A stretch of DNA of 64,000 bases from a bacterium (GTDB taxonomy: Bacteria; Patescibacteriota; Minisyncoccia; Moranbacterales; UBA2206): positions 4,997 through 68,996 of the forward strand of contig JAJYDG010000001.1 of assembly GCA_021777675.1 (NCBI GenBank), in the 5' to 3' direction. Both the position numbers and the translations under genes were made by a program. Within the stretch, counting starts at the first letter, position 1. Every line of letters starts with the position of its first letter. Shown one piece after another: positions 309 to 20,801 of this stretch. The notes beneath the pieces are model-generated. The model was not told the DNA's origin and made no database searches. It saw only the letters and a list, made by a program, of their open reading frames with translations.

Positions 309-548
309 ATGCTTCCAATTATTTATGGCGTCTACATTTTCGCGATTTTTATGCTTAGTCTAATTTGTTTTTTCATCATTTATCACTTAATTAAGTATTC
401 TATTAATGCTCGTTTTAGTCGACTGTTTTCTTTGTTTTTTGCGGTTACTTCTTTTATACTGATTGTTTCCAATATTATTTTGTTTTCCGCAATTGATTGG
501 AAAACAATCACATCAAGCGTTGCTTTTAATAATTTTAATTCTTTTTAG
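309..548 (+). CDS. small hydrophobic membrane protein (79 aa), unknown function
   Basis: ORF with 2-3 predicted TM helices immediately upstream of the PH-domain membrane protein; no recognisable motif. Confidence 0.35.
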   Translation: MLPIIYGVYIFAIFMLSLICFFIIYHLIKYSINARFSRLFSLFFAVTSFILIVSNIILFSAIDWKTITSSVAFNNFNSF

Positions 549-549
549 T

Positions 550-1137
550 ATGGAAAATTTCAATCAGTTTCATTTTAAAGGTCAAAAACCCGGTGAAACA
601 ATTTTAATGGTGATTCACCGTCATTGGTTTAATATTTTAAGTAAATTTTTTATATTATTCATCTTGCTGGTACTTTTGTTTTTTAGTTTTTTTTCCAATT
701 TTTTTATTCCAACCGCTCTTCTTAGCGATTCAAGCGCAAATTTGATTTCTTTTTTTCAAAATTCTTTTTTTATTTTTATTTGGCTATTTTTCTTTATTAC
801 TTGGATTGATTATTATTTTGACGTCTGGATTGTTACTAATGAAAGAATTGTTAATATCAACCAAAAAGGACTTTTTTCTCGCGAAGTCAGCGAATTGGAA
901 ATGGAAAAAATTCAGGATATTACCGTTGAAGTGCTTGGCATTATCCCGACTTTCTTCAACTACGGCAATCTCTATATACAAACAGCGGGAGAAACTGAAC
1001 GTTTTATTTTTGCCCGCGTTCCCAATCCATATGCAATAAAAGATCTGATTATGAATCTCCAAAAAGACTATGAAAAAGCGGAAGCGGAAAATCTCGGATC
1101 GGTCATTCGTAAAGAAATTCACGAGGAGTTGCAATAG
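550..1137 (+). CDS. bacterial PH-domain (YdbS/YdbT-like, bPH_2) membrane protein
   Basis: ORF track 463-1137; likely start is the internal ATG at 550 (MENFNQFHFKGQKPGETILMVIHRHWF…, typical bPH_2 N-terminus) followed by 2 TM helices and the conserved …YIQTAGE…F..V.NPY… region. Confidence 0.55.
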   Translation: MENFNQFHFKGQKPGETILMVIHRHWFNILSKFFILFILLVLLFFSFFSNFFIPTALLSDSSANLISFFQNSFFIFIWLFFFITWIDYYFDVWIVTNERIVNINQKGLFSREVSELEMEKIQDITVEVLGIIPTFFNYGNLYIQTAGETERFIFARVPNPYAIKDLIMNLQKDYEKAEAENLGSVIRKEIHEELQ

Positions 1138-1173
1138 TTTTTGGCTGTAAAATAAAAAGTGTAAAATAAAAAA

Positions 1174-3126
1174 ATGAAAACAAAAATAATTTTGCTTTTA
1201 GTTTTTGCTTTGCTTCTATTTGCGTTTTTTTTGAAAGAAAAAGTTTTTGCATCGGCTATTCCCATTATTATCAGTGCAATTCAAACAAGCGGAGACACAA
1301 CTGATGATGATTTTATAGAGCTCTATAATGATTCCTGTGAAGATATTGATTTATCAGGCTGGAAAATATTTAGAAAAACCAAGTCATCTACCAAGCAAAT
1401 ATCAATTGGAACACTAAAAAAAATTATTCCGGCTAAGGGATATTTTCTTTGGAAAAATACAACATCCAATACTAATGGAGGTCCTGATTATGCAACAAAA
1501 ACATATTATTTAGCAGATGATTATAGCATCGCTCTTTTTGACAAAACTGAAAAGCAAATAGATTCTATTACTTGGGGCGCCAACCAAAATCCATTTCCAA
1601 ACACAATTGCATATCCAGATAATTTAGATGATTTTGAAGTGCTAAAAAGAAATACCAGCAACAACTTATCTATTAAAAAAAATTATTCTCCAAAAAATTC
1701 ATCTTTTATTGAAACAACTGAAATTGCTTTGTGCCAAAAAAACGAGCCCCCGCAATTGCCAAAAACATATTCCGACAAAATAATTATTAGCGAACTTTTT
1801 CCTGCGCCGTCAAACAATTCCGGAAAAGAAGAATTCATTGAACTTTACAATCCGGATGAAAAAAACAATGATATTTCCGACTGGATTTTGCGCGACTCAT
1901 CAAAAAATGGAAAATATATTTTTCCCAAAAACACAAACATAAAAGCAAGTAACTTTTTTGTCGTCTATAAAAAAGATTTTAAATTCGCCTTGAATAATTC
2001 CGGCGGAGAAAAAGTTTCCCTCTTTGATCCGACAGAAAAAGAAATTGCGCAAGCCGGCTATTCTTCATCTGCCAAAACAGATTATGCCTATGCTTTTGAC
2101 GGATCCACTTGGCATTGGACGCCATATTACACTCCGGGAGAAGAAAATATTTTTGCGGAAATTATTTCCGGAGAAATCAAAAAAGATAAAAAAATTTACT
2201 CGGGCATATATGCAAATTTCGAAGCTGCCTCAGATAAAAAAGCCGAAAAATTCACTTGGGATTTTGGCGACGGACATAAAAGCTATTCAAGAAAAGCCAA
2301 ACACAAATATGAAAAATCCGGCGAATATAAAGCTAGCCTTAAAATTAGCGGAAACGGTGAAGATAACTTAATTGAATTTCAAGTTAAGGTGGAAAAATTC
2401 GGCAAACCAAAGGTGCGCATCATTTCCCTTTTCGCCAATCCTGCGGGAAAAGACACAAAAAACGAATGGCTGGAATTAATCAATAAAACCAATAAAAAAA
2501 TCAATCTCAAAAATTGGTCAATCGCTTCCGGATGGAAAAAACTCTATAACCATCCCGTTCGTGAAGATTTTATTTTAAAGCCCGGAAAAAGCAAAAAATT
2601 AATGAGTGATATCTGCGCTTTCAGTCTGGGAAATGAAAAATCAAAAATAGAATTGCGCTATCCTGATGGAAAAGTGGCGGACAAAATCAAATATAATCGG
2701 GAAAAAGATCCGATTTTGGAAGATGAACTCTATCAAAAAATTGAAAAATCCGGCTGGAGTTGGCACAAAATACAAACCGCAAAAACAACACCATCCGCGA
2801 CAAAAGATCTGCCCGAAGTTTTAAGCGATTCTGTTTCAACGGAAAATAATCCATCTAATATCGAGTTGCCAATAAATGTCCGTTCAACAAAAAATCCGAT
2901 TTGGGAAATCAAACAAAAGCGACAGATAGTATTGCTTTTTGCCAAAACAAAGATTGATCCGGAAAAATTTCTTGCAAAAAATCCGGGACTACTTTTAAAA
3001 ATCGCCATAACCACCCGCTTTTCAAATATTAGCACAAAAGAAAAAAAGACACCCTTATTTTTCTCGCCTTCTTTTTTTTGGAGAACAATCAATGCCCGAT
3101 TAAATCAACTTATTTTAAAATTTTAA
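1174..3126 (+). CDS. secreted lamin-tail-domain (LTD) repeat protein with a PKD domain
   Basis: N-terminal signal peptide; three LTD-like repeats (…SGWKIFRKTKSS…, …DWILRDSSKNGKYIFP…, …NWSIASGWKKLYNHP…) and a PKD-like segment (FTWDFGDGHKS…YEKSGEYKASLKISGNG). Confidence 0.7.
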   Translation: MKTKIILLLVFALLLFAFFLKEKVFASAIPIIISAIQTSGDTTDDDFIELYNDSCEDIDLSGWKIFRKTKSSTKQISIGTLKKIIPAKGYFLWKNTTSNTNGGPDYATKTYYLADDYSIALFDKTEKQIDSITWGANQNPFPNTIAYPDNLDDFEVLKRNTSNNLSIKKNYSPKNSSFIETTEIALCQKNEPPQLPKTYSDKIIISELFPAPSNNSGKEEFIELYNPDEKNNDISDWILRDSSKNGKYIFPKNTNIKASNFFVVYKKDFKFALNNSGGEKVSLFDPTEKEIAQAGYSSSAKTDYAYAFDGSTWHWTPYYTPGEENIFAEIISGEIKKDKKIYSGIYANFEAASDKKAEKFTWDFGDGHKSYSRKAKHKYEKSGEYKASLKISGNGEDNLIEFQVKVEKFGKPKVRIISLFANPAGKDTKNEWLELINKTNKKINLKNWSIASGWKKLYNHPVREDFILKPGKSKKLMSDICAFSLGNEKSKIELRYPDGKVADKIKYNREKDPILEDELYQKIEKSGWSWHKIQTAKTTPSATKDLPEVLSDSVSTENNPSNIELPINVRSTKNPIWEIKQKRQIVLLFAKTKIDPEKFLAKNPGLLLKIAITTRFSNISTKEKKTPLFFSPSFFWRTINARLNQLILKF

Positions 3127-4253: not shown

Positions 4254-4748
4254 ATGAAAATCCTCGGCATTGATCCAGGCACGGCCACAACCGGCTGGGC
4301 AATTATTGAAATTAAAGGCGATAAATTTATCCCCCTAGCCTTTGGACACATTAGCACATCAAAAGATAATAATGATGATGAACGCCTTTTAGAAATTTCC
4401 GACGACTTGGTAAAAATAATCCAAAAACATAATCCAGATGAAGCCGCTATTGAAAGTCTTTTCTTTTTCAAAAACCAAAAAACAGTTATCCAAGTCGCTC
4501 AATCCCGCGGAGCAATCCTCTTGACTTTAAGGCAAAATAATGTTAAAGTGTTTAATTACACACCCCTCCAAGTCAAGCAAGCATTAACCGGCTATGGACG
4601 AGCGGAAAAAAAACAAATGCAACTAATGGTAAAAAATATTTTACATTTAAAATCCTTACCCGAGCCTGATGACGTGGCTGATGCGCTAGCAATCGCTGTG
4701 TGCCACGCCAACAGTCGAATTTTAATTAATTTAAAAAATGCGTCATGA
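4254..4748 (+). CDS. ruvC: crossover junction endodeoxyribonuclease RuvC
   Basis: MKILGIDPGTATTGWAIIE… RuvC N-terminal catalytic motif; 164 aa. Confidence 0.9.
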   Translation: MKILGIDPGTATTGWAIIEIKGDKFIPLAFGHISTSKDNNDDERLLEISDDLVKIIQKHNPDEAAIESLFFFKNQKTVIQVAQSRGAILLTLRQNNVKVFNYTPLQVKQALTGYGRAEKKQMQLMVKNILHLKSLPEPDDVADALAIAVCHANSRILINLKNAS

Positions 4749-5410
4749 ATGAAATTAATTTCAATATCAGTCCTCTCTTGACTTTCTTTCTTAATGAGGG
4801 CGTGCCCTTTGAAACAATCAAATTAATTCTAATGCTTCCAATTATTGCAACATTAATCGCCTTCTTACGCCAAGTGGTTGGAATTAAAGCTTTTGGAATT
4901 TACACGCCATTGCTTGTTACTTTTGCTTTTTTAGCTACTAACGGATTGAGGTATGGAATTGCTATTTTCATCACTATCATCTTAATTGGAATGCTTACGA
5001 GAGTCGCACTTAAATCTTTTCGTCTGCTCTACCTCCCTCGCGTCGCTATCATGCTCACAATCGTCGCTCTTTCCATTCTTATAATGTTAGTTATTGGGGG
5101 CAGTCTTAAAAGAACGGGATTAGCTTCTGTTTCAATTTTCCCTATTCTCATTATGATTACATTGGTAGAGAAATTTATTGCCGTGCAAATTGAAAAAGGC
5201 GACCGCGCCGCCATTCTTTTGGCCGCTGAAACACTAATTATTTCCATTTTGGGATTTTATATTGCCAGCTGGGAAACTCTTGTTCATTTTATCGCTTTTT
5301 ATCCATGGATCATTCTTCTCACCATTCCTCTTAATATTATTTTAGGCAAATGGACGGGACTGCGACTTAGTGAATATTTTCGCTTTGGAGAAATAATAAA
5401 AAGAAAATAG
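4745..5410 (+). CDS. 7-transmembrane membrane protein (7TM_transglut-like module without a transglutaminase domain)
   Basis: 221 aa, seven predicted hydrophobic helices; start overlaps ruvC stop (ATGA); directly precedes a RimK-related ATP-grasp gene, the arrangement described for 7TM_transglut / alpha-L-glutamate-ligase-related gene pairs. Confidence 0.55.
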   Translation: MNEINFNISPLLTFFLNEGVPFETIKLILMLPIIATLIAFLRQVVGIKAFGIYTPLLVTFAFLATNGLRYGIAIFITIILIGMLTRVALKSFRLLYLPRVAIMLTIVALSILIMLVIGGSLKRTGLASVSIFPILIMITLVEKFIAVQIEKGDRAAILLAAETLIISILGFYIASWETLVHFIAFYPWIILLTIPLNIILGKWTGLRLSEYFRFGEIIKRK

Positions 5411-5414
5411 TTTT

Positions 5415-6842
5415 ATGTTTGATTTTTTAAAAAAATTTTCTATTTACCTAAATGCCCGCCGCGATATTCTTGGAATGAACGCTAGAAATTTGAAGTATAT
5501 TCGACCATATAATCGCACAAATGCCAAAAGAATTGCCGATGATAAATTACTCAGTAAACGCATCTTGAAAAAAAACGGAATTGCCGTTCCAAAATTAATC
5601 GGGAAAATTATTTCTCAAGAAAATTTGGATAATTTCAATTGGCAAACACTTCCCGATAGCTTCGTGTTAAAACCAAATAAAGGTTTTGGCGGTGAAGGTA
5701 TTATTGTTGTTTATGGTCGCAAAAAAAACAGTATGGACACATGGATTAAGGCTGATGGGTCATTGATTACGATTGAAGATCTAAAAAACCACGCCAGAAA
5801 CATCATTGATGGATCATATTCCCTGTCCGGCGTTCCCGATATTGCTTTTTTTGAAGAGCGTCTAAAACTTTTAAAACTCTTTAAGCCATACGCCTTTAAA
5901 GGCATTCCTGATATTCGCATTATTGTCTTTAATAAAATGCCTGTTATGGCAATGCTCCGCCTTCCCACAAAAGAATCTCATGGCAAAGCAAATCTCACGC
6001 AAGGAGCAATCGGAGTTGGAATTGATCTTGCGTCAGGAATTACCACTACCGCCGTTATGGGAAAACAAAAAATAATCGAGTATTTGCCGGGCACAAAATT
6101 ACTTCTTTCCGGAATTAAAATTCCCTATTGGACAGATATTCTAACCCTTGCTGTTCGTTCGCAAGAAATTTCGGGCTTAGGTTTTTTGGGTGCGGATATT
6201 GCCATCGACAAAGAATTAGGACCGGTTATTTTGGAATTAAACGCACGCCCGGGACTCGCCATTCAAATTGCCAATCTTGACGGGCTAAAGTGGCGACTAA
6301 AAAAAGCGGCCGGTATTAAAATTAAAACAGTCAAAAAAGGCATTCGTGTCGGCATGGATCTTTTTGGCGGTGAAATTGAAGAAGAATTGGAAGAAATTTC
6401 CGGAAAAAAAGTAATTGGAACAGTGGAAAAAGTGAAATTGATCGGAAAAGATGGCAAGGAAATTGAAGTGGAAGCAAAGATTGATACGGGGGCACATTCA
6501 ACTTCGATTGACACAGAAATTGCCAAAGAATTGGGGTTTGCAGGAGTTATAGAATTTTTTAATTCCTTAGAATTGCCAAAAAACTTTAAACGCGAGGATA
6601 TTAAACAAATCGAGGAGCACCTGCGAAAAAAATATATTCATCAGCATCCCGACCTAGCTGATATCTCCGCCATATATTCATCACATGGTGTTTCAATTAG
6701 ACCGAAAATAATACTTAAGTTGATTTTAAATAATATTGAGCTTGTCACGCAGGTAAACGTGACTGAAAGAAAAGAGTTAGCAAAAGAAATCATTGTTGGT
6801 CGAAAAAACTTAAATAAATTCTTAATTGATGTTTCCAAATAA
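5415..6842 (+). CDS. alpha-L-glutamate-ligase-related ATP-grasp protein fused to a C-terminal retropepsin-like (clan AA, DTGA) aspartic protease domain
   Basis: N-terminus MFDFLKKFSIYLNARRDILGMNARNLKYIRPYNRTNAKRIADDKLLSKRIL…GIAVP…FVLKPNKGFGGEGIIVV matches the RimK-related ligase (TIGR02291 / ATPgrasp_ST type) pattern; C-terminal third contains …KIDTGAHSTSIDTEIAKELG…, a clan AA aspartic protease (RimB / PF05618-like) active-site motif. Confidence 0.7.
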   Translation: MFDFLKKFSIYLNARRDILGMNARNLKYIRPYNRTNAKRIADDKLLSKRILKKNGIAVPKLIGKIISQENLDNFNWQTLPDSFVLKPNKGFGGEGIIVVYGRKKNSMDTWIKADGSLITIEDLKNHARNIIDGSYSLSGVPDIAFFEERLKLLKLFKPYAFKGIPDIRIIVFNKMPVMAMLRLPTKESHGKANLTQGAIGVGIDLASGITTTAVMGKQKIIEYLPGTKLLLSGIKIPYWTDILTLAVRSQEISGLGFLGADIAIDKELGPVILELNARPGLAIQIANLDGLKWRLKKAAGIKIKTVKKGIRVGMDLFGGEIEEELEEISGKKVIGTVEKVKLIGKDGKEIEVEAKIDTGAHSTSIDTEIAKELGFAGVIEFFNSLELPKNFKREDIKQIEEHLRKKYIHQHPDLADISAIYSSHGVSIRPKIILKLILNNIELVTQVNVTERKELAKEIIVGRKNLNKFLIDVSK

Positions 6843-7854
6843 GCATATGTTCACAAAATATTTCATAAAATTATCGACTACAAACATAAAAGACTTAAAG
6901 GGTTCTTCTTTTCAAATACTAAAATATGCCCTAAGTAGAGATATTGAAGTATATAGAGTTTTTTCTGACAAAAGAATTCTCGTCCTAAAAAAAGACTCAA
7001 AGCAAGTTTGGATAGACACCTCTCTCACTTCAAAAACAAATCCCGTAGGTATGAGAATAGCAAGAAATAAACATCTCTCAAAGAAATTTTTAAAAAAACT
7101 GGGGTATCCCGTCGCACCAAGCATAAACATGCAAAGTAATGACGACTGCACTCAAATCAGTAATCAAGCAATATCGGAAATAGGCTTTCCATTAGTGGTT
7201 AAGCCGCTAAGAGCTGCTGAGGGAAAGGGCATTACAACTAACATCAATAATAAAGATCTCCTTTTAAATTCGATTCAATCAGCTTTAAAATTTGATAAAA
7301 AAATAATGATCGAAAAACATATTGCCGGTGATTATTACAGAATAACTTATGTGGCAGATGGTGCCTATGCGGTTACAAAAAATCTTCCGGCATATATTAC
7401 TGGAAATAATTCCAACACCATCAGGGAGCTAATTTCAATAGAAAACATTAACAATAAAGAAAGACGCGGAAGGGGAAAATTAAAAAAAATTAAAATTTCA
7501 GAAAAAACTGAAAGATTTTTAGCATCTGCCGGATATACATTTGATTCAATTCTGCCTAAGAATATTAAAATACCTCTTTGCTTCAGCGGATTTGATGGTG
7601 GAGAATATATAAATGTGACAAAAAAAGCTCACCCGTATTTCATAGAAATAAGCAAACAAATATCTGAAAGCCTAGGCTTGCCAATAGTCGGCATTGATAT
7701 TGTCTCACAAGCTATAAATATTCATCCAAAATTAAACAATGGAGTTATAATTGAAATAAATGGCACATACCCAGATATTCTATTTCACAATAAACCAACT
7801 TACGGGGAGGCCACTAGCCTCATCCCTAATCTTATTGATTACTTGTTTTCTTAA
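6829..7854 (+). CDS. ATP-grasp ligase, cyanophycin-synthetase-like ATP-grasp domain (no Mur-ligase domain)
   Basis: …GFPLVVKPLRAAEGKGITTNINNKDLL…EKHIAGDYYRITYVADGAYAVTKNLPAYITGNNSNTIRELISIENINNKERRG…LGLPIVGIDIVSQ… parallels the CphA N-terminal ATP-grasp region; start ambiguous (ATG 6829 or 6847; ORF track used TTG 6826). Confidence 0.65.
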   Translation: MFPNKHMFTKYFIKLSTTNIKDLKGSSFQILKYALSRDIEVYRVFSDKRILVLKKDSKQVWIDTSLTSKTNPVGMRIARNKHLSKKFLKKLGYPVAPSINMQSNDDCTQISNQAISEIGFPLVVKPLRAAEGKGITTNINNKDLLLNSIQSALKFDKKIMIEKHIAGDYYRITYVADGAYAVTKNLPAYITGNNSNTIRELISIENINNKERRGRGKLKKIKISEKTERFLASAGYTFDSILPKNIKIPLCFSGFDGGEYINVTKKAHPYFIEISKQISESLGLPIVGIDIVSQAINIHPKLNNGVIIEINGTYPDILFHNKPTYGEATSLIPNLIDYLFS

Positions 7855-7879
7855 TTTTTTATTTTTAATCACCATTTCT

Positions 7880-8764
7880 ATGAAACTAAAATTTCTAATC
7901 GTTAGTTCGCGAATCAGCCAGCTCTCGCAAGATTTAATTGACGAAATACTAATAAAAGGGCATACTTTTGCATTTTCCACTACGCAAGATTTTATTTTCG
8001 AAATAGAAAATGGTCATTTTAAAGCAAGCACCCCAAATATTCCCAATCTTTTTGATTTTGATATATATATCCTAAGATCATTTTCCAAAAATATGGCCAA
8101 TTCCAAAATATTTACCGAGGAACTTAGATTAAAAAATAAAATAGTAATCGAAGAGTGTATTTCAGATAATTATATCAATAGTAAATTTGCAGAAGGCGTA
8201 CGCCTTACGCGTAGCGGTCTCAACTATCCGATTTCTTATCAAATTCCCAATATAGAAAATATTGAAAAAATTCCTGATAACATTTTTCCAGCAATAGTTA
8301 AACCAACCAATGGTTCCAGGGGTCGCAATATCTCAATAATTGAAAATAAGAAAGACCTTGCTAATTTTATACAAAAAAATCCCGAGGATCTCTTGGTACA
8401 AGAATATTTACCCATTGAATGGGATATTCGAATTTTTGTTGTTGGCAATAAAGTTTTGGGTGGAATAAAAAGATATGTTTTGGAAGGCGATTGTCGTTCC
8501 AACGCATCTTTAGGATCTCAAACTGAGCCTTTCGAAGTTGCGCCAGAAATTGAAGAAATAGCGCTAAAAGCCACAAAAACATTACACTATTCAGTTGCTG
8601 GCGTCGATCTTGCTTGGGCAAAAAATAAGCAAAATTGGTTTGTAATTGAAGTAAACATATCTCCCCAATGGCACGCATTTAAAGCTATAACCAAAATCAA
8701 TCCGGCTATTCATATTATTCAGCACGCGATTGATTTGTATGTCAAGAAAAACGCTCAGAAATAA
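7880..8764 (+). CDS. RimK-family alpha-L-glutamate ligase (ATP-grasp)
   Basis: ORF track 7760-8764; probable start ATG 7880 (MKLKFLIVSS…); …FPAIVKPTNGSRGRNISIIENKKDL…VQEYLPIEWDIRIFVVGNKVLGGIKRYVLEGDCRSNASLGSQTEPFE…AGVDLAW…FVIEVNISPQW typical RimK ATP-grasp core. Confidence 0.7.
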   Translation: MKLKFLIVSSRISQLSQDLIDEILIKGHTFAFSTTQDFIFEIENGHFKASTPNIPNLFDFDIYILRSFSKNMANSKIFTEELRLKNKIVIEECISDNYINSKFAEGVRLTRSGLNYPISYQIPNIENIEKIPDNIFPAIVKPTNGSRGRNISIIENKKDLANFIQKNPEDLLVQEYLPIEWDIRIFVVGNKVLGGIKRYVLEGDCRSNASLGSQTEPFEVAPEIEEIALKATKTLHYSVAGVDLAWAKNKQNWFVIEVNISPQWHAFKAITKINPAIHIIQHAIDLYVKKNAQK

Positions 8765-11823: not shown

Positions 11824-12987
11824 TTAGTTTTTTATTGGCATAACTATATAAGTAAAACCATCAACAAAACTTTTTTTATCCGGAAGCACTTCTTTTAGTG
11901 CCACAGGTGAAGAATCGCTATTTGCCAATAAAGCTAAGTTTTCAGTGGCAATTACATTAATTCCATCTAATAAGTATTTTAAATTAAAAACAATATTCTG
12001 AGACTCTCCATGAGCTTCAAATTTAACTTCTGTTGAGTTTTCACCAGTCTCAGCACTAATTGTATCAATAAAAACGGTCATCGCTTGTGTGTCAATTTTC
12101 AACACAACTTCTCGTGATTTTCCATCAGCAAAAACACTCGCCATTTTTAAAGCGTTTTGTAATATTTTTTTTTCTCCAATAATTGTTGTTTTGTATTTTT
12201 CCGGCATAATATGCTTATATTCCGGATATTTTCCATTAATCAGGCGGGAAACAATCTTAATTCCATCCAGTTCAAAAAAAATCTGGCCATCTTCGATAAA
12301 AACATTTACTAAAACATTATTCTCAAATCCATTGGAAATAATTTTATTTAATTCCAATAATGTATTCAATGGGATAATAATATTACTATTTTTAGCAAAA
12401 AAATCAGCATAATAATTGTCATTAATATTAAACTCTTTCAACATTAAAAAACGTTCAGACAAACGAAACCCATCTGTAGCGGCAAAAGCTATTTTATCCG
12501 CAAAAAAAACAACGTTTACACCGGATAATTCTTGTCTTGCGTCATTATGCGCTACAGAAACAATAATTTTATTAAAAATATCTTTTAATTTCAAAACAGA
12601 AATTCCAAAAACAAAATCAGTATTTTTTTGTGGAATTAAAGGAAATTCATCAGAAGAAAATCCTTTAATATTAGCTTTTGTCAAGCCATTTTTAATTTTA
12701 AGATTATATCCATCAACCTCAATATCAATATTCTCTCCTCCAATAAGATTGGTGGAAAAATTACCAAGAAGCTTAGCTGGAATAGCAATACTTCCTTCTT
12801 TCTCAACTTTCGCTCCTATTTTTATTTTTATACCTATTTCCAAATTTGTCGCAATAATATTTAAAAAACCTTTTTCCGCTTCCAATAATATATTATTTAA
12901 AATCGGTAAAGTGTTTTGTTTTGAAACAATATGTTCAGCGTTGTTTATGGCTTTTTTAAAATTTTCTTGGGTACAAGTTAATTTCAT
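11824..12987 (-). CDS. dnaN: DNA polymerase III beta sliding clamp
   Basis: MKLTCTQENFKKAINNAEHIVSKQNTLPILNNILLEAEKGFLNIIATNLE… canonical DnaN N-terminus; 387 aa; downstream of dnaA. Confidence 0.9.
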   Translation of the reverse strand: MKLTCTQENFKKAINNAEHIVSKQNTLPILNNILLEAEKGFLNIIATNLEIGIKIKIGAKVEKEGSIAIPAKLLGNFSTNLIGGENIDIEVDGYNLKIKNGLTKANIKGFSSDEFPLIPQKNTDFVFGISVLKLKDIFNKIIVSVAHNDARQELSGVNVVFFADKIAFAATDGFRLSERFLMLKEFNINDNYYADFFAKNSNIIIPLNTLLELNKIISNGFENNVLVNVFIEDGQIFFELDGIKIVSRLINGKYPEYKHIMPEKYKTTIIGEKKILQNALKMASVFADGKSREVVLKIDTQAMTVFIDTISAETGENSTEVKFEAHGESQNIVFNLKYLLDGINVIATENLALLANSDSSPVALKEVLPDKKSFVDGFTYIVMPIKN

Positions 12988-13262
12988 ATGAGTAGAGTGA
13001 TTAATTAAATTATTTATAAATATATAAAATTGATATTACTATTACTATAAAATAGATAGTTGTGGATAAATAGATATTTTATTTTTAAATGGTTGATTTA
13101 ACTTTTTTTATCTTGTGGATAATTTATGTTTTATTTGAAATTGATGCGTGGATAATTTTATGTGATGAATTTATTTTAATTTATTTTGACAGGGAATTAA
13201 CAGTATATAATATTAATTTTTGATGTTTTTACAGGGTTTTTAAATAGGATATTAACAGGTTA
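12988..13262. other. probable oriC: AT-rich dnaA-dnaN intergenic region with DnaA boxes
   Basis: perfect DnaA boxes TTATCCACA (as TGTGGATAA) at 13061-13069 and 13114-13122, a 8/9 box at 13147-13155 (CGTGGATAA), plus extremely AT-rich stretch 13010-13060 (candidate DUE). Confidence 0.6.
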
Positions 13263-14675
13263 TCAGACTATTTTATATAATTGTTCTTGTATGGTGATTA
13301 TTTCTTTTTGTAATTTCTCATCTGTGAGTAATAATTTGGTTATTTTTTCGTATGCATGAATAGCTGTCGTATGATCTCGCCCACCCATTTTTTCTCCAAT
13401 ACCAGGAAAGGAAAATTCCAATTCGTTGCGCAAAAGATACATAACCACTTGCCTTGGTTTAACAATTTCTTTTTTGCGGTTTTTTGCAATCAAATCATCC
13501 GGATTTATTTCATAAAAAGAAGATACGGTTTTGATTATATGTTTATGTGTGACGCCTTTCTTTTTTCCGCTTGAAATTATTTCTGATAATTGTCCGACGG
13601 CAAAATCTTTGGTTATTTCCGCATTAGTTAGTTGAGACGCAACTATTATGCGATTTAAAGCACCTTCTAGTTCTCGAATATTGTTTTTAATGTTTGTGGC
13701 AATAAAGAGCAGTGTTTCGTCGTTGATTTGAATGTTTTCAGTAAAAGCTTTTTTCTTAAGAATGGCTATTCTTGTTTCCAGGTCAGGATTGGAAACATCA
13801 GCAATCATTCCTCCTTCAAAACGCGATCTTAAGCGTTCCTCCAGAATTTGTATTTCTTTGGGTGGTCGGTCGCTACTTAGAACGATTTGTTTGTTAAGCT
13901 GATAAAGATAATTAAAAATATGAAAAAATTCTTCTTGAGTTTTTTCTTTGCCGGAAATAAATTGAATATCATCAATAATGAGAATGTCTATTTTTTGGTA
14001 ATATTCCTTGAATTCATTAATTTTTTGGTTTTGTAGAGCATCAATCAGTGTTGCGGTAAATCTTTCTGATGTAATATATTTTACGCGAAAGTTGGGATCT
14101 CTTTTTAGAATCTCATTACCAATTGATTGGATAAGGTGAGTTTTCCCCAGACCTACTCCGCCATAAAGAAAAAGAGGGTTGTAAATTTTTCCCAAATTTT
14201 GTGAAACAGCAAAGCAAGCGGCGCGAGCTAATTCATTATTTCCTCCAACGACAAAGTTTTCGAAAGTGTATTTTGGATTAAGGTTATTTTCAATGTTTAT
14301 CTGTTGAATTGGCTGGGTGGAATAAGTGGGATTTATAACAGTAGTCTTTTGGTTTTGTGTGATTTGATGTTGTTTTTGTGGGGCAACAATAGCATCAACC
14401 ATCGCTTCTCTGCGCAAAACAGTGTCTTTTGGTGTTGCGATAACGCAAGAAATTGAGCGAATGTCGTTTTGTAGGTTCTTTAAGGAATGTAAAATGTGGG
14501 AATTAAATTTGTTTTCTAGCCATTCTTTAGCAAAACCGTTGGGAACGCTAATGGTAATGTGTCCATTTATGTTCGATTGTATGGATGTTTGCTTAAACCA
14601 TGTGATAAAATTAGCTCTAGAAATAGAAAGTTCTATTTCTGAAAGGGCAGCTTGCCACAATTCTTCATTAGTCAT
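13263..14675 (-). CDS. dnaA: chromosomal replication initiator DnaA
   Basis: ORF track 13263-14846; likely start ATG at 14675 (MTNEELWQAALSEIELSISRANFITWF…); Walker A GGVGLGKTHL, DnaA signature and C-terminal DNA-binding domain. Confidence 0.9.
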   Translation of the reverse strand: MTNEELWQAALSEIELSISRANFITWFKQTSIQSNINGHITISVPNGFAKEWLENKFNSHILHSLKNLQNDIRSISCVIATPKDTVLRREAMVDAIVAPQKQHQITQNQKTTVINPTYSTQPIQQINIENNLNPKYTFENFVVGGNNELARAACFAVSQNLGKIYNPLFLYGGVGLGKTHLIQSIGNEILKRDPNFRVKYITSERFTATLIDALQNQKINEFKEYYQKIDILIIDDIQFISGKEKTQEEFFHIFNYLYQLNKQIVLSSDRPPKEIQILEERLRSRFEGGMIADVSNPDLETRIAILKKKAFTENIQINDETLLFIATNIKNNIRELEGALNRIIVASQLTNAEITKDFAVGQLSEIISSGKKKGVTHKHIIKTVSSFYEINPDDLIAKNRKKEIVKPRQVVMYLLRNELEFSFPGIGEKMGGRDHTTAIHAYEKITKLLLTDEKLQKEIITIQEQLYKIV

Positions 14676-14894
14676 TTTGTTTAATAAAAGAATTAGCGTT
14701 TTAATTTGTCCCCTTGAGAAAAAGTATAGCATAAGAAAAAAATAAATAATAAGTTGATAGCGGATAATATTGTGTATAAGCTGTGGATTGGTGTGGATAA
14801 TCGTATTTATTCCAAGGTGGCAGGTTTTAATGTTAGTGCTTGACAAAAAAAATGGCTATGCTAGACTTTTCAGTCAATATTAATTATCTAATAA
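14676..14894. promoter_or_regulatory. dnaA upstream region with DnaA box(es) (autoregulation / origin flank)
   Basis: perfect DnaA box TGTGGATAA at 14792-14800 and a degenerate copy (CTGTGGATT) at 14781-14789 upstream of the dnaA start. Confidence 0.45.
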
Positions 14895-15879: not shown

Positions 15880-16794
15880 ATGAGCAACCGACAAATTTGG
15901 GGCAAAAAAATTGGTATTGGAGCAGTTTTGTTTTTTGCGATATTGATTTTCAATATTAACAAAAATAGCGTCTATGAATCAGAAATAAACGTTTTGGTTT
16001 TGCCAAAAAATGAATTGCTTGCAAAAGAAACTGATTTGATTAGGGGAAATTTCAAGCAAATAATGCAATCATTGGCTTTTTGTGATGAAGTGGCGCAACA
16101 AAATGAAAGTCTTTCTGTTATGCAAGATTTATCAAACTATAAAAGAAAAGAATTTTGCAATTCCAAGCTGGAAGTTTCTCTGGTGGAAAAAACCGCAATA
16201 ATTAGCGTGAAAAATTTTGATAAAAATAGCACTTTAGCGCGAGAACTGAATTCTGATACGGTAGAAAAGCTTATTGCATCTGCAGGAAAATATTACAATA
16301 TAAATACTGATATGGAATTGCGAATCATAGACGGACCGATTATTAAGTTGGATAGTTTTCGAAATAGTCTTTGGATTTTTGAGGAAAGTCTTTTTTTGAC
16401 GTTGGTTGTTTGCGTAGGATTATTTTTTTTAGTCCCCTTTATTTTTATCAAAAAGAAAAAAACAAACTTGCCGATTTTGAAAAATAAGTTTTCTTCAAAA
16501 ACGCCACTTGAAAAAATGGTAGCCATTTTTCCCGAAACAGAAAATTATTTTTCCGATAAAAAATTTTTTCCAACAAAAAAAGTCGAGCCATCTGTCGGAA
16601 AAAAAGCCCCAATACCGGTTAATTTGCCTGTAAATGAAGAAACTGTTCCGGATATTTTTCTCGATAAAAAAGCTTTTGTTAAAAATGATATGTTGGAAAA
16701 AAAAGAAAATGAAAGCGAGGATTATATTTCTCGTGAGGCTACTTCCGATGAAGTTAAGGAAAGATTGAATAAACTACTTCGTGGCGGAAAATAA
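15880..16794 (+). CDS. membrane protein, two-TM Wzz-like topology, hypothetical
   Basis: N-terminal TM (…GAVLFFAILIFNI…), ~150 aa hydrophilic domain, second TM (…LTLVVCVGLFFLVPFIFI…), charged C-terminal tail; no clear motif. Confidence 0.5.
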   Translation: MSNRQIWGKKIGIGAVLFFAILIFNINKNSVYESEINVLVLPKNELLAKETDLIRGNFKQIMQSLAFCDEVAQQNESLSVMQDLSNYKRKEFCNSKLEVSLVEKTAIISVKNFDKNSTLARELNSDTVEKLIASAGKYYNINTDMELRIIDGPIIKLDSFRNSLWIFEESLFLTLVVCVGLFFLVPFIFIKKKKTNLPILKNKFSSKTPLEKMVAIFPETENYFSDKKFFPTKKVEPSVGKKAPIPVNLPVNEETVPDIFLDKKAFVKNDMLEKKENESEDYISREATSDEVKERLNKLLRGGK

Positions 16795-19436: not shown

Positions 19437-19599
19437 AAAATAAAAAATAGAAATATTATTTTTAGTAACTCTACCCGAATTGTAGCGAAATTTGACATTG
19501 AAAGCAAACGCTATTGACAAATTTTAAAATAAGCCTACAGTAAATAGTTAGATTTAATTTTGAATCTAATTTTCTTTAACAATCAAAGGAGGTTTGATA

Positions 19600-20801
19600 T
19601 GCTAAATTTTATTCTGTTTCCTTTTTTTTGGTTGGGGGCAAGACTGATTAGATTCGGTCTGTGTATGTTTGGTTTTAAAAAAGTAGTTGCGGTGCAAATA
19701 TCCAATTACCGTGACGAAGCCGATGTCCGGCTGTTTGGTTTTTGGAATATCGAAAAAGCTCCGCGTGTTCTTTCATGGACTCAGTATGCATGGGAAGGAA
19801 TACGTGGAAAACTTTTTATGATCCGCGTTACGACGGATCAGATAAAGAAAGCCTTGGAGAATGCAGCGTCATCGCCAAGAGAGTTATTGCGCATCCGTGA
19901 ATTATTTATGGAAGCGGTTGATGAAGCGATCAAGTTGGGTGTCAAAAACGTTCTATTGGCTGCCGCAACAAAGAGGCTTTTCAAGAAAGGAGAACTTGAA
20001 TTATTGTTTCCCGGAGTGATTTTTACTCTTGGGGATAATTTTACAGGCCTATTACTTGCTAGACGCATAAAGGATAATTTTCGGATATATGGATTGAATC
20101 CGAAAACATCCAGAGTGCTTGTGATAGCACCATATGGATTTTTAGGTAAGGTGGCGCTATGCACAGTTTGCGAACTTGGTTGCCAGGTTGTCGGTTTTGG
20201 AAACTCAAAAAGACCGGAACTGACAAATGGTTTGGCAAAAAAATTTGGCTTTTTTCCGGTATTTGATTTTTCGGATGTTGGAAAAGTTGATATGGTCATT
20301 GCTTGCAGCGAGGCAAGACCGGTTCAGTTAACTCCGGAAAGAGTAAAGATGATTCGCAAGGCGGGAAAAAAATTGATTGTTATTGATCCTTGCGAACCGG
20401 CAAATATGACGCCGGAAATGGTGAAAAAATGTCTCGGCGCAGTAACGCGTTTCGACGCCGGAAATGGATATAGCTCGAGATTGAAATATGTTCTCGGTTA
20501 TGTTTCATACCGGGTTTTGAGACTCACGAAAGGAGAAACGTGGGGCTGTTTTTGCGAAAATTTTTTAATCGCAAAACATGAAAATCTCCAACAAGAGGAG
20601 GATTGGTTTTCCGTGACGCCGGAGCGCATTGAGCGTCTAAAAAAATACTATGGCAATGGAATGGGGCAGTTTTGTTTGCCACCGGCAAGTTGTCATGGAA
20701 AAAGCATAACAACATTTCCCCTTTATTTTTCAGAGGGAAAAATAAAAAATAAAGGGGCTTTTAATCTCGTTTGGGATGGGATTAAAAGTATTTTTTTGTA
20801 A
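19600..20801 (+). CDS. hypothetical protein, possible Rossmann-fold (shikimate/amino-acid dehydrogenase-like) domain; locally GC-enriched
   Basis: ATG at 19600 preceded by AAAGGAGG SD; …VLVIAPYGFLGKVALCTVCELGCQVVGFGNS… resembles an NAD(P)-binding segment; GC visibly higher than flanks. Confidence 0.4.

What the first reader, a model, noticed from the sequence alone, without database searches (positions are those of the whole stretch)
4745..8764. Four-gene 7TM + triple ATP-grasp + fused retropepsin-like protease cluster, a putative peptide/protein amino-acid-tagging system
Directly downstream of ruvC, and apparently co-transcribed with overlapping or abutting ORFs, sit four genes. The first is a 7-helix membrane protein. 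The second is an alpha-L-glutamate-ligase-related ATP-grasp whose C-terminal third carries a clan AA (DTGA: …KIDTGAHSTSID…) aspartic protease domain. The third is a cyanophycin-synthetase-like ATP-grasp, and the fourth a canonical RimK-type glutamate ligase. Established knowledge: RimK-type enzymes add amino-acid tails to protein C-termini (S6 poly-Glu), and CphA-type enzymes polymerise amino acids without a ribosome. RimK-related ligases are known to co-occur with 7TM(-transglutaminase) membrane proteins and RimB-like retropepsin proteases, but as separate genes. Here three different amidoligases are stacked with the membrane module, and the protease is fused to a ligase. I am not aware of this being described, least of all in a reduced CPR-like genome. 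No obvious small precursor-peptide gene is adjacent, so the substrate (a ribosomal protein, a membrane or cell-surface target, or a free polymer) is open.
Basis: partly seen in the sequence, partly recalled or inferred. Interest (0 to 1): 0.85.

Follow-up and report, generated by a model that had tools for sequence, protein, structure and literature searches.

The report
Fused peptide ligase–protease membrane system
This is a variant, found here only in tiny CPR (Patescibacteria) bacteria, of the recently described Rlo/Rim systems that build and trim glutamate-rich peptide tails; here the builder and the trimmer are one protein, paired with a membrane protein and followed by a set of extra ligase genes that differs between genomes.

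Summary
The four genes are real and abutting: a 7TM protein (PF14402), a 475-aa fusion of an RloC-type ATP-grasp and a retropepsin, a stand-alone homologue of the cyanophycin-synthetase G domain, and a RimK-family ligase.

The cluster is not a chance juxtaposition. In 71 CPR genomes the 7TM gene sits directly upstream of the fusion in all 69 evaluable loci, mostly as yebC–ruvC–7TM–fusion.

The genes between the fusion and pbp1a form a variable cassette, with 34 architectures in 53 loci. It holds ATP-grasps, Mur-ligase-like, GNAT, MATCAP, YdjC and glycosyltransferase genes.

The protease domain folds like RloA (9g58). It keeps DTGA and the Lys/Arg/Arg residues shown to bind polyglutamate in RloA.

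The best-conserved segment of the fusion is a predicted-disordered Glu-rich linker, FGGEIEEELEEI. It is absent from stand-alone relatives.

Best reading: a cytoplasmic, membrane-coupled build-and-trim machine for an acidic α-peptide, with accessory ligases that diversify the product. The substrate is unknown.

The components are known: the RloABC operon (2025) and the RimBK protease–ligase hybrid (2025).

Four features appear undescribed: the reversed RloC–RloA fusion, the 7TM partner lacking a transglutaminase domain, the invariant linker, and the variable cassette. Verdict: new variant of a known kind.

The parts
4745..5410 (+). G1: 221-aa 7TM membrane protein. It corresponds to the C-terminal 7TM module of RloB and has no transglutaminase domain. 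Predicted topology is N-out/C-in, with a conserved cytoplasmic tail KWxGLRxxEYxRF.
   Evidence: PF14402 at 2.1e-33. It matches NF052267 RloB only at model positions 312-507 of 508. About 7 hydrophobic segments. Conserved residues were taken from 69 homologues. It lies directly upstream of the fusion in 69/69 evaluable loci.
5415..6842 (+). G2: 475-aa fusion protein made of an RloC-type ATP-grasp ligase, an acidic linker and a retropepsin-like protease. It has no TM segment, so it is predicted to be cytoplasmic.
   Evidence: More than 120 full-length homologues at 66-95% identity. 71 genomic loci, all CPR.
5415..6359 (+). G2 ATP-grasp domain (aa 1-315), of the alpha-L-glutamate-ligase-like (TIGR02291 / PF14397) type.
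   Evidence: PF14397 at 1.9e-68 and TIGR02291 at 2.3e-89 (299.5 bits against a cut-off of 314.2). The AF2 model is confident over this domain, and its best Foldseek hits are ArgX/LysX/RimK/Ddl. K86, D261, E274 and N276 are invariant.
6360..6407 (+). G2 linker (aa 316-331), LFGGEIEEELEEISGK. It is Glu-rich, predicted to be disordered, and the most conserved stretch of the protein.
   Evidence: Virtually invariant in 72 sequences down to 43% identity. Over a 12-residue window, conservation is 0.975, against 0.93 for the ExN catalytic motif. pLDDT is about 30. The motif is absent from stand-alone relatives. The segment is more acidic when DTG is intact.
6408..6839 (+). G2 retropepsin-like (RloA/RimB-type, PF05618) protease domain (aa 332-475).
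   Evidence: A profile of this domain hits PDB entries 9g58 (RloA, 6.9e-10), 9g59 (RloA2, 8e-9), 2pma and Ddi1. Scanned alone it scores 31.5 bits for PF05618, above the cut-off of 27, and 23/25 homologues match. The domain model has pLDDT 91.8. Its top Foldseek hits are RloA, Lpg0085 and RloA2, followed by HIV-1 protease.
6483..6494 (+). Catalytic DTGA motif (D357-A360), preceded by K355.
   Evidence: D357/T358/G359/A360 are invariant in 46 homologues. K355, R429 and R452 align with RloA K46, R114 and R137, the residues that coordinate polyglutamate (alignment; PMC12239564 section 8).
6829..7854 (+). G3: 341-aa stand-alone ATP-grasp homologous to the G domain of cyanophycin synthetase. It belongs to cassette family c2.
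   Evidence: TIGR02068 at 1.5e-61, but only over model positions 156-471 of 862 (208 bits against a cut-off of 850). Matches PDB CphA1 7lgn residues 147-463 at 3e-33. Family c2 is present in 18 of 53 loci, at only 20-31% identity to G3.
7880..8764 (+). G4: 294-aa RimK-family ATP-grasp ligase. It belongs to cassette family c1.
   Evidence: PF08443 at 1.1e-32 and TIGR00768 at 1.8e-39 (135.8 against 143.4). PRK10446 scores 66 against 331. Matches PDB RimK 5zct at 1.6e-16. Family c1 has 25 members including G4. Identity to G4 is 24-42%, except 65% in L019.

Best explanation
This is a CPR/Patescibacteria variant of the Rlo (RloABC) type of amidoligase-peptidase system, reduced to its cytoplasmic and membrane parts.

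Steps marked (shown) rest on tool results here. Steps marked (inferred) do not.

1. (Shown by homology; chemistry inferred.) The N-terminal ATP-grasp of G2 is an RloC/RimK-like alpha-L-amino-acid ligase. It adds acidic residues, most likely L-Glu, to the C-terminal carboxylate of an acceptor, making an oligo- or poly-alpha-glutamate-rich chain.

2. (Fold, catalytic motif and substrate-binding residues shown; activity inferred.) The fused C-terminal retropepsin is brought into its obligate dimer by oligomerisation of the ligase. It cuts Glu-rich chains, as RloA and RimB do. This limits chain length, releases product or recycles the acceptor. G2 would therefore be a writer and an eraser in one polypeptide, like RimK+RimB.

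3. (Conservation shown; role inferred.) The invariant Glu-rich linker directly N-terminal to the protease interacts with the positively charged substrate channel. It acts either as a tethered pseudo-substrate that gates the protease or as a slow self-processing site.

4. (Linkage shown; role inferred.) The 7TM protein G1 holds the enzyme at the membrane through its conserved cytoplasmic tail. It either carries or translocates the product, or couples activity to the state of the envelope.

5. (Variability shown; role inferred.) G3 (CphA G-domain type) and G4 (RimK type) extend or cap the same chain with other residues. They belong to a cassette that is exchanged between genomes, so the product differs between lineages. 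The product probably ends up associated with the envelope.
For: Domain identities.

Linkage:
- yebC-ruvC-7TM-fusion synteny holds across 71 CPR loci.
- A 7TM+ATP-grasp single-chain protein exists (P0249).

Protease specificity:
- K355, D357, R429 and R452 match RloA K46, D48, R114 and R137.
- In RloA, mutating these residues abolishes polyE cleavage and complementation (PMC12239564).
- 27 of 36 representatives with intact DTG keep the K/R/R set.

Precedents:
- RimB trims RimK-made polyE and stimulates RimK. A RimBK hybrid is active as a protease (PMC11957791).
- In Pseudomonas, deleting rloB or rloC suppresses the triple rloA-protease mutant (rloA, rloA2, rloA3). This places ligase, membrane protein and protease in one pathway.

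Related fusions: the same ligase is joined to other peptide- or sugar-modifying erasers, namely MATCAP carboxypeptidase, YdjC or a second ATP-grasp.

Linker:
- It is the most conserved 12-mer of the protein.
- It occurs only in fusions.
- It is more acidic when DTG is intact (mean 3.4 against 1.7 acidic residues, p = 8e-6, not corrected for phylogeny).

Cassette:
- 34 architectures in 53 loci.
- 49 of 53 loci carry at least one further ATP-grasp.
- Relatives with 71-79% identical G2 and identical flanks carry different cassettes.
Against: - No acceptor or product was identified. The 64-kb window contains no rpsF, no polyE tract and no ORF with an acidic C-terminal tail.
- The amino-acid specificity of all three ligases rests on family membership alone. 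TIGR02291 and TIGR00768 both score just under their curated cut-offs.
- The linker's longest Glu run is three residues. RimB needs 5-6 contiguous Glu and RloA needs 8, so self-cleavage is not expected from known specificity.
- In Pseudomonas the protease and the RloB transglutaminase-like domain act outside the cytoplasm. Both extracytoplasmic parts are missing here, so the pathway logic may differ.
- The cassette also carries glycosyltransferases and YdjC, and the Pfam family is named 'sugar-transfer associated'. These point to a glycoconjugate acceptor rather than a peptide.
- The function of RloABC is itself unknown.
Confidence: 0.5

Rival explanations
1. Envelope glycopolymer or peptidoglycan decoration. 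The ATP-grasps, with Mur-ligase-like partners in other genomes, attach amino acids to a sugar-linked or lipid-linked cell-wall precursor (teichuronopeptide-like, or stem-peptide or cross-bridge modification). The 7TM protein handles the lipid-linked intermediate. The protease has a regulatory or editing role.
For: - The cassette in relatives holds GT2/GT4/GT8 glycosyltransferases, a YdjC deacetylase and Mur_ligase_M proteins.
- PF14397 is named 'sugar-transfer associated', and G2 has a weak TupA-like hit.
- The locus always lies beside the class A PBP gene.
- Variation between genomes resembles that of surface-polysaccharide loci.
- rlo mutants in Pseudomonas have cell-shape, beta-lactam and hypo-osmotic phenotypes.
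Against: - The window's own cassette has only two ATP-grasps and no glycosyltransferase.
- The nearest structural relatives of the ligases are enzymes that extend peptide C-termini (RimK, LysX/ArgX, the CphA G domain), not sugar-acid ligases.
- The conserved polyE-binding residues of the protease imply a peptide chain of several acidic residues.
- Adjacency to pbp1a persists even where tyrS intervenes, so it may simply be ancestral gene order.
Confidence: 0.25
2. Ribosomal protein S6 (RpsF) polyglutamylation rheostat, as in RimK/RimB. G4 and/or G2 add Glu to the C-terminus of S6, and the fused protease trims it to tune translation.
For: - G4 is RimK-family, and its best solved homologue is E. 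coli RimK.
- The protease is cytoplasmic like RimB, and RimBK fusions exist.
- The polyE-binding residues are conserved.
Against: - The universally conserved partner is a 7TM membrane protein, which the Rim system lacks.
- G4-type genes are present in only 22 of 53 loci and are highly divergent.
- G4 scores 66 against 331 on the S6-ligase equivalog.
- The fused ligase is of the RloC type, not the RimK type.
- rloA and rimB do not interact genetically in Pseudomonas.
Confidence: 0.1
3. Synthesis of a cyanophycin-like or other free storage or osmoprotective poly-amino-acid, with G3 as the polymerase.
For: - G3 is homologous to the CphA G domain.
- Some relatives pair this gene with a Mur-ligase-like gene, together resembling a split CphA.
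- Glutamate and polyE have been discussed as osmolytes in the Rlo paper.
Against: - G3 lacks the N and M domains.
- The G3 family is present in only 18 of 53 loci, and a Mur-ligase-like partner in only 6.
- No cyanophycinase gene is present.
- The conserved core is the 7TM protein plus the fusion, not G3.
Confidence: 0.05
4. Graspetide/RiPP maturation cluster, or an anti-phage defence island.
For: - CPR genomes do encode graspetide ATP-grasps (PMC8939145).
- The cassette is variable.
Against: - No precursor ORF fits the intergenic gaps.
- The graspetide maturase model scores 24.6 against 350.
- None of the four proteins has a PADLOC hit.
Confidence: 0.03

Closest known systems
RloABC operon of Pseudomonas aeruginosa/fluorescens (Lormand et al., mBio 2025, PMC12239564): retropepsin RloA, 7TM inactive-transglutaminase protein RloB and ATP-grasp RloC.
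   Same: - The same three protein families are genetically linked: PF05618 retropepsin, PF14402 7TM and PF14397/TIGR02291 ATP-grasp.
- The catalytic DTGA motif and the K/R/R polyglutamate-binding residues are conserved.
- The best structural match of the protease domain is RloA itself (9g58).
   Different: - The protease is fused to the C-terminus of the ligase and has no signal peptide, so it is cytoplasmic rather than periplasmic.
- The 7TM protein lacks the whole N-terminal transglutaminase-like domain.
- An invariant Glu-rich linker is present.
- One to three further ATP-grasp genes follow in a variable cassette.
- The host is CPR (monoderm, reduced genome), whereas 96% of RloB hits are proteobacterial.
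RimK/RimB and the RimBK hybrid (Desulfotalea psychrophila DP2392; J Biol Chem 2025, PMC11957791).
   Same: - A cytoplasmic retropepsin-like polyE endopeptidase works with, or is fused to, an alpha-L-glutamate ligase, giving write-and-erase logic.
- The protease-ligase fusion as a principle is already documented and is biochemically active.
   Different: - Domain order is reversed: RimBK has the protease at the N-terminus, whereas here the ligase is N-terminal.
- The ligase belongs to the RloC/ATPgrasp_ST family, not RimK proper.
- A 7TM partner is obligatory here.
- RimBK is found in Flavobacteriales and Rhodobacterales, not CPR.
- The known target, RpsF, is not implicated here.
Cyanophycin synthetase CphA1 (G domain).
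   Same: G3 aligns with the ATP-grasp G domain, which extends a peptide C-terminus (7lgn residues 147-463).
   Different: G3 has no N domain and no Mur-ligase-like M domain. It scores 208 bits against the 850-bit equivalog cut-off.
Eukaryotic tubulin tail code (TTL/TTLL ATP-grasp ligases against MATCAP/CCP peptidases).
   Same: - ATP-grasp ligases write acidic or aromatic C-terminal tails and dedicated peptidases erase them.
- CPR relatives of G2 carry a MATCAP-family carboxypeptidase fused to the same ligase.
   Different: This is an analogy only. The window's own protein has no MATCAP domain, and no tubulin-like substrate is known.

Membership tests
Rlo system (RloABC) | ATP-grasp of the RloC / alpha-L-glutamate-ligase-like type (TIGR02291, PF14397) | tested here: met
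   PF14397 scores 231 bits against a cut-off of 31.4. TIGR02291 scores 299.5 bits, just under its 314.2 cut-off. G2 is 39-45% identical to stand-alone 'alpha-L-glutamate ligase-like' proteins. That RloC itself belongs to TIGR02291 rests on my own knowledge and was not verified here.
Rlo system (RloABC) | Adjacent 7TM module of the PF14402 family (RloB) | tested here: met
   PF14402 at 2.1e-33. Matches NF052267 RloB positions 312-507. Adjacent in 69/69 evaluable loci.
Rlo system (RloABC) | Inactive transglutaminase domain on the membrane protein, facing outside | tested here: not met
   G1 is only 221 aa and covers only the last ~196 positions of the 508-position RloB model. All aligned homologues have about the same length.
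Rlo system (RloABC) | Secreted, separately encoded retropepsin with a signal peptide | tested here: not met
   The protease is residues 332-475 of the ligase polypeptide. G2 has no hydrophobic segment.
Rlo system (RloABC) | Retropepsin with DTG and a polyE-binding Lys/Arg channel | tested here: met
   K355-x-D357-T-G-A, R429 and R452 align with RloA K46/D48/R114/R137 (paper). The fold matches 9g58/9g59. Cleavage activity itself was not tested.
Rlo system (RloABC) | Role in osmotic, envelope and antibiotic tolerance | not testable with these tools
   This feature is a phenotype only.
RimK/RimB, RimBK hybrid | Ligase is the S6-L-glutamate ligase RimK | tested here: not met
   On PRK10446, G4 scores 66.4 against 331 and G2 scores 14 against 331. 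On the RimK subfamily TIGR00768, G4 scores 135.8 against 143.4.
RimK/RimB, RimBK hybrid | RimB domain N-terminal to RimK in one chain | tested here: not met
   The order here is ligase (N-terminal) then protease (C-terminal). RimBK is described in PMC11957791.
RimK/RimB, RimBK hybrid | RpsF with a C-terminal Glu acceptor as substrate | not testable with these tools
   No rpsF is present in the window or in the fetched loci.
Clan AA retropepsin-like peptidases (PF05618, RimB-like) | DTG(A) active-site motif in a retropepsin half-barrel fold that dimerises | tested here: met
   The motif is invariant. The domain alone passes the Pfam cut-off. It hits RloA, Lpg0085, Ddi1 and HIV protease by profile and by Foldseek. 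Dimerisation was not tested.
Cyanophycin synthetase CphA1 | N + G (ATP-grasp) + M (Mur-ligase-like) domains in one enzyme | tested here: not met
   G3 covers only model positions 156-471 of 862, scoring 208 against 850 bits.
D-Ala-D-Ala ligase | Full-length match above the family cut-off | tested here: not met
   The best Ddl model scores 47.5 against 243 bits and matches only ~100 residues.
Graspetide (RiPP) cluster | Adjacent precursor peptide gene and a graspetide-type maturase | tested here: not met
   No ORF fits the gaps. TIGR04187 scores 24.6 against 350.

The most novel reading that the evidence does not exclude
The invariant Glu-rich linker is a built-in substrate mimic or self-processing site. 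The fusion would then be a self-regulating or self-priming peptide-tail machine. Cleavage in the linker would free the retropepsin, as in retroviral polyproteins, and leave the ligase with a Glu-rich C-terminus that it could itself elongate at the membrane.

Together with the hypervariable ligase, peptidase and glycosyltransferase cassette, this would be a CPR-wide, lineage-specific 'write/erase' code of non-ribosomal peptide tails or surface polymers. It would be a prokaryotic counterpart of the tubulin tail code.
Probability: 0.12. Interest if true: 0.85.

Novelty: new variant of a known kind. Interest (0 to 1): 0.6.

Why it matters
The biochemical function of the Rlo system is still unknown, although it affects antibiotic tolerance, biofilm formation and cell shape in Pseudomonas.

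The CPR version is a natural minimal form. It has no periplasmic protease and no transglutaminase domain, and the ligase and protease are covalently coupled. It shows which parts are essential (the 7TM module, the RloC-type ligase and the polyE-type protease). It also argues that the ligase and protease act on the same molecule.

It offers a compact target of one or two proteins for identifying the product in vitro.

The invariant acidic linker and the interchangeable ligase cassette give testable hypotheses about regulation and product diversity.

The system is conserved next to the replication origin in a large group of reduced-genome episymbionts. It is therefore probably important for their envelope or their interaction with hosts.

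Tried and rejected
1. **Chance juxtaposition.** Rejected by synteny in 71 loci and by a 7TM-ligase single-chain protein.

2. **G3 as housekeeping CphA or Ddl.** Rejected because the matches are partial and far below the cut-offs.

3. **Defence island.** No PADLOC hits.

4. **Graspetide cluster.** No precursor gene and no maturase match.

5. **Horizontal-transfer signature.** G3 and G4 have GC of 0.33-0.34, inside the window's gene range of 0.354 ± 0.038, so composition says nothing.

6. **Encoded substrate.** A search of the window found no rpsF, no E4+ or [DE]6+ run and no acidic C-terminal tail.

7. **Promoter and terminator scan.** Promoter-like sites occur at the chance rate. There is no internal + strand terminator, which is only weakly informative.

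8. **Iyer et al. 2009 (PMC3268129).** This paper predicted these amidoligase systems, but it is not held in the library. Whether it already mentions this fusion could not be checked.

9. **Full-text searches.** Searches for the Pfam accessions, for RimK with CPR, for ATP-grasp with Patescibacteria and aspartic protease, and for MATCAP with ATP-grasp found no description of this architecture.

10. **Taxon names for stand-alone and triple-fusion relatives.** Mostly unavailable. The few names found were Peregrinibacteria, Patescibacteria and 'uncultured bacterium'.

11. **Whole-protein Foldseek.** It returned only ATP-grasp hits. The protease domain therefore had to be modelled separately.

Full report
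**Observation.** The four + strand ORFs are present as described.
- The ruvC stop overlaps the G1 start as ATGA (4745-4748).
- G1 (4745-5410) and G2 (5415-6842) are 4 nt apart.
- G3 most plausibly starts at the ATG at 6829, overlapping G2 by 14 nt.
- G4's real start is the ATG at 7880, because homologues align from residue 2-3 of that start. That start lies 25 nt after G3.
- No terminator-like site lies on the + strand between yebC and the end of G4.
- The gene after a 134-nt gap is a class A PBP.

**Domain content.**
- G1 matches PF14402 7TM_transglut (2e-33). It aligns only with the last ~196 positions of the 508-position RloB model, so the transglutaminase-like domain is absent. It has about seven hydrophobic helices and a basic, conserved C-terminal tail, which suggests N-out/C-in topology.
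- G2 residues 24-297 match PF14397 (2e-68) and TIGR02291, the alpha-L-glutamate-ligase-like family (2e-89, 299.5 bits against a cut-off of 314.2).
- G2's C-terminal third matches PF05618 and the RloA1-3 models.
- G3 matches only the G-domain part of cyanophycin synthetase (model positions 156-471 of 862; PDB 7lgn residues 147-463). It is well below every Ddl cut-off.
- G4 is RimK-family. Its best solved homologue is E. coli RimK (1.6e-16), but it is far below the S6-ligase equivalog (66 against 331 bits).
- None of G2-G4 has a hydrophobic segment.

**The protease domain is real.**
- A profile of 25 C-terminal domains hits the crystal structures of RloA (9g58, 6.9e-10), RloA2 (9g59, 8e-9) and Lpg0085 (2pma), and then Ddi1.
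- The isolated domain passes the Pfam cut-off, and 23 of 25 homologues match PF05618.
- An AlphaFold model of residues 330-475 (pLDDT 91.8) finds RloA, Lpg0085 and RloA2 as its best Foldseek matches, followed by HIV-1 protease.
- D357-T-G-A is invariant in 46 homologues.
- In the profile alignment, K355, R429 and R452 coincide with RloA K46, R114 and R137. Those residues line the positively charged channel, and mutating them abolishes polyglutamate cleavage and complementation (PMC12239564).
- The full-length model (pLDDT 80.8) has an ATP-grasp domain most similar to ArgX/LysX/RimK/Ddl, a disordered segment at 320-334, and then the protease.

**Conservation and context.**
- The fusion has more than 120 full-length homologues at 66-95% identity, annotated as Moranbacteria or Parcubacteria.
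- A scan of one genome per GTDB species returned 71 loci, all CPR/Patescibacteria.
- The 7TM gene directly precedes the fusion in all 69 loci that can be evaluated. ruvC and yebC precede the pair in most loci.
- The two genes after the fusion are not conserved in the same way. Between the fusion and pbp1a lie 1-6 co-directional genes drawn from many families:
  - three to four ATP-grasp families (c0 ATPgrasp_ST/YheCD-like, c1 RimK-like = G4, c2 CphA-G-like = G3, c3 biotin-carboxylase-like);
  - Mur_ligase_M, GNAT, MATCAP/DUF1704 peptidase, YdjC and RimK+DUF3541 proteins;
  - GT2/GT4/GT8 glycosyltransferases.
- There are 34 architectures in 53 loci, and 49 of 53 loci have at least one further ATP-grasp. 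The window's order (c2 then c1) occurs in 7 loci.
- G3 is only 20-31% identical to its counterparts and G4 mostly 24-42%, while G1 and G2 are 60-90% identical in the same genomes.
- Two close relatives (G2 79% and 71% identical) have identical flanks but different cassettes.
- Composition does not mark the cassette as foreign.

**Wider family.** A full HMMER search of 1.8 billion cluster representatives found 431 relatives at E ≤ 1e-30. Besides G2-like fusions of 430-500 aa, it found:
- a large class of proteins of about 770-817 aa joining ATPgrasp_ST, a retropepsin and a MATCAP carboxypeptidase;
- an ATPgrasp_ST-retropepsin-YdjC protein;
- an ATPgrasp_ST-retropepsin protein with a second ATP-grasp;
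- a 7TM_transglut-ATPgrasp_ST single chain.

The few named members are Peregrinibacteria, Patescibacteria or 'uncultured bacterium'. In 59 of 95 representatives of at least 400 aa the DTG motif is degenerate, mostly in the MATCAP fusions. Of the 36 with intact DTG, 27 keep the K/R/R set.

**An unexpected feature.**
- The segment FGGEIEEELEEI (aa 317-328) lies between the ligase and the protease and is predicted to be disordered. It is nevertheless the most conserved 12-residue window of the protein across 72 sequences (0.975, against 0.93 for the ExN catalytic motif and 0.50 for the protease domain as a whole).
- It is absent from stand-alone relatives.
- In the wider family the equivalent segment is more acidic when DTG is intact (mean 3.4 against 1.7 acidic residues, p = 8e-6, not corrected for phylogeny).
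- RimB needs 5-6 contiguous Glu and RloA needs 8, and the longest run here is EEE. I therefore favour a tethered pseudo-substrate or docking element over an efficient self-cleavage site. Neither has been tested.

**What is known.**
- RloABC was described in 2025. RloA is a secreted retropepsin that cleaves polyE. [quoted passage not shown] RloC is a cytoplasmic ATP-grasp. Deleting rloB or rloC suppresses the triple rloA-protease mutant. The substrate is unknown (PMC12239564).
- RimB trims RimK-made polyE tails on S6 and stimulates RimK. A RimBK hybrid with the protease at the N-terminus has been purified and is active (PMC11957791).
- The components, their linkage and the idea of a protease-ligase fusion are therefore not new.
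- Full-text searches found no description of the following:
  - the reversed RloC-RloA fusion;
  - the 7TM partner without a transglutaminase domain;
  - the acidic linker;
  - the variable ligase cassette;
  - the MATCAP triple fusions;
  - the CPR distribution.
- The 2009 paper that first predicted such systems could not be read.

**Mechanism.** I commit to a membrane-coupled build-and-trim system.
- The G2 ligase domain extends an acceptor carboxylate with acidic residues.
- The fused retropepsin, dimerised through ligase oligomers, cuts the Glu-rich chain.
- The linker gates the protease.
- G1 anchors the enzyme and carries or translocates the product.
- G3 and G4 add other residues, giving lineage-specific products that are probably associated with the envelope.

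Shown: the domain identities, the fold, the conserved catalytic and substrate-binding residues, the gene linkage and the cassette variability. Inferred: the chemistry, the substrate, the role of the linker, the role of G1 and the destination of the product.

The main rival is decoration of a glycopolymer or peptidoglycan precursor. It is supported by the glycosyltransferases, YdjC and Mur-ligase-like genes in relatives and by the neighbouring PBP gene. S6 glutamylation, cyanophycin-like storage, graspetide synthesis and phage defence are less likely.

**Verdict.** This is a new variant of a known kind and is of moderate to high interest. It is a minimal, widely conserved CPR form of a system whose biochemistry is still unsolved, and it carries an unexplained invariant acidic linker.

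Noticed in passing
window 11824-14846 (- strand) and about 13000: dnaN (11824-12987) and dnaA (13263-14846) lie on the minus strand. The cumulative GC skew reaches its minimum near 13 kb. The replication origin is therefore probably about 5 kb from the cluster.
   Followed up: partly
window 463-3126: A bacterial PH-domain protein (463-1137) and a 650-aa protein with three lamin-tail domains plus a PKD domain (1174-3126) lie upstream of yebC. Both are conserved in the same position in the close relatives L072 and L073.
   Followed up: partly
L046:9336-10838, L003:13132-14592 and 10 more loci: A family of about 500 aa (c3) follows the fusion in a sister clade. It has no Pfam hit, but its profile matches biotin-carboxylase-type ATP-grasp structures (1e-7). 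It is probably yet another unclassified amidoligase.
   Followed up: partly
L003:12336-13124, L018, L032, L070, L072:10068-10874: A family of about 262 aa (c7) has no Pfam match. It recurs next to GT2/GT4 glycosyltransferases inside the variable cassette.
   Followed up: no
P0129, P0139, P0142, P0151 and about 40 more representatives: Proteins of about 770-817 aa join ATPgrasp_ST, a retropepsin-like domain and a MATCAP (tubulin-detyrosinase family) carboxypeptidase. In most of them the DTG motif is degenerate, as if the metallopeptidase had taken over the eraser role.
   Followed up: partly
P0249 (576 aa): A single polypeptide joins a 7TM_transglut module to an ATPgrasp_ST ligase. This is a Rosetta-stone fusion that supports a physical G1-G2 partnership.
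   Followed up: partly
L064, L065, L067, L068: In this subgroup the protease motif is DTG[N/K/T/S] and both channel arginines are lost. These loci also have no accessory ligase gene. In L064, L065 and L068, tyrS follows the fusion directly on the opposite strand; L067 is a 2.7-kb contig that ends just after the fusion.
   Followed up: no
L004, L011, L020, L046-L049 and others (record titles): Many 'binchicken' MAGs labelled uncultured Bdellovibrionales or Saccharibacteria carry the same Moranbacteria-type synteny. The labels look unreliable.
   Followed up: no
window 15880-16794 and 19560-20801: Two long ORFs (304 and 413 aa) have no Pfam match at E ≤ 1e-5.
   Followed up: no
L072, L073 (precomputed Pfam names): The newer Pfam release used for the precomputed hits already names PF05618 'RimB-like' rather than 'putative ATP-dependent zinc protease'. 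Database naming has caught up with the 2025 papers.
   Followed up: no
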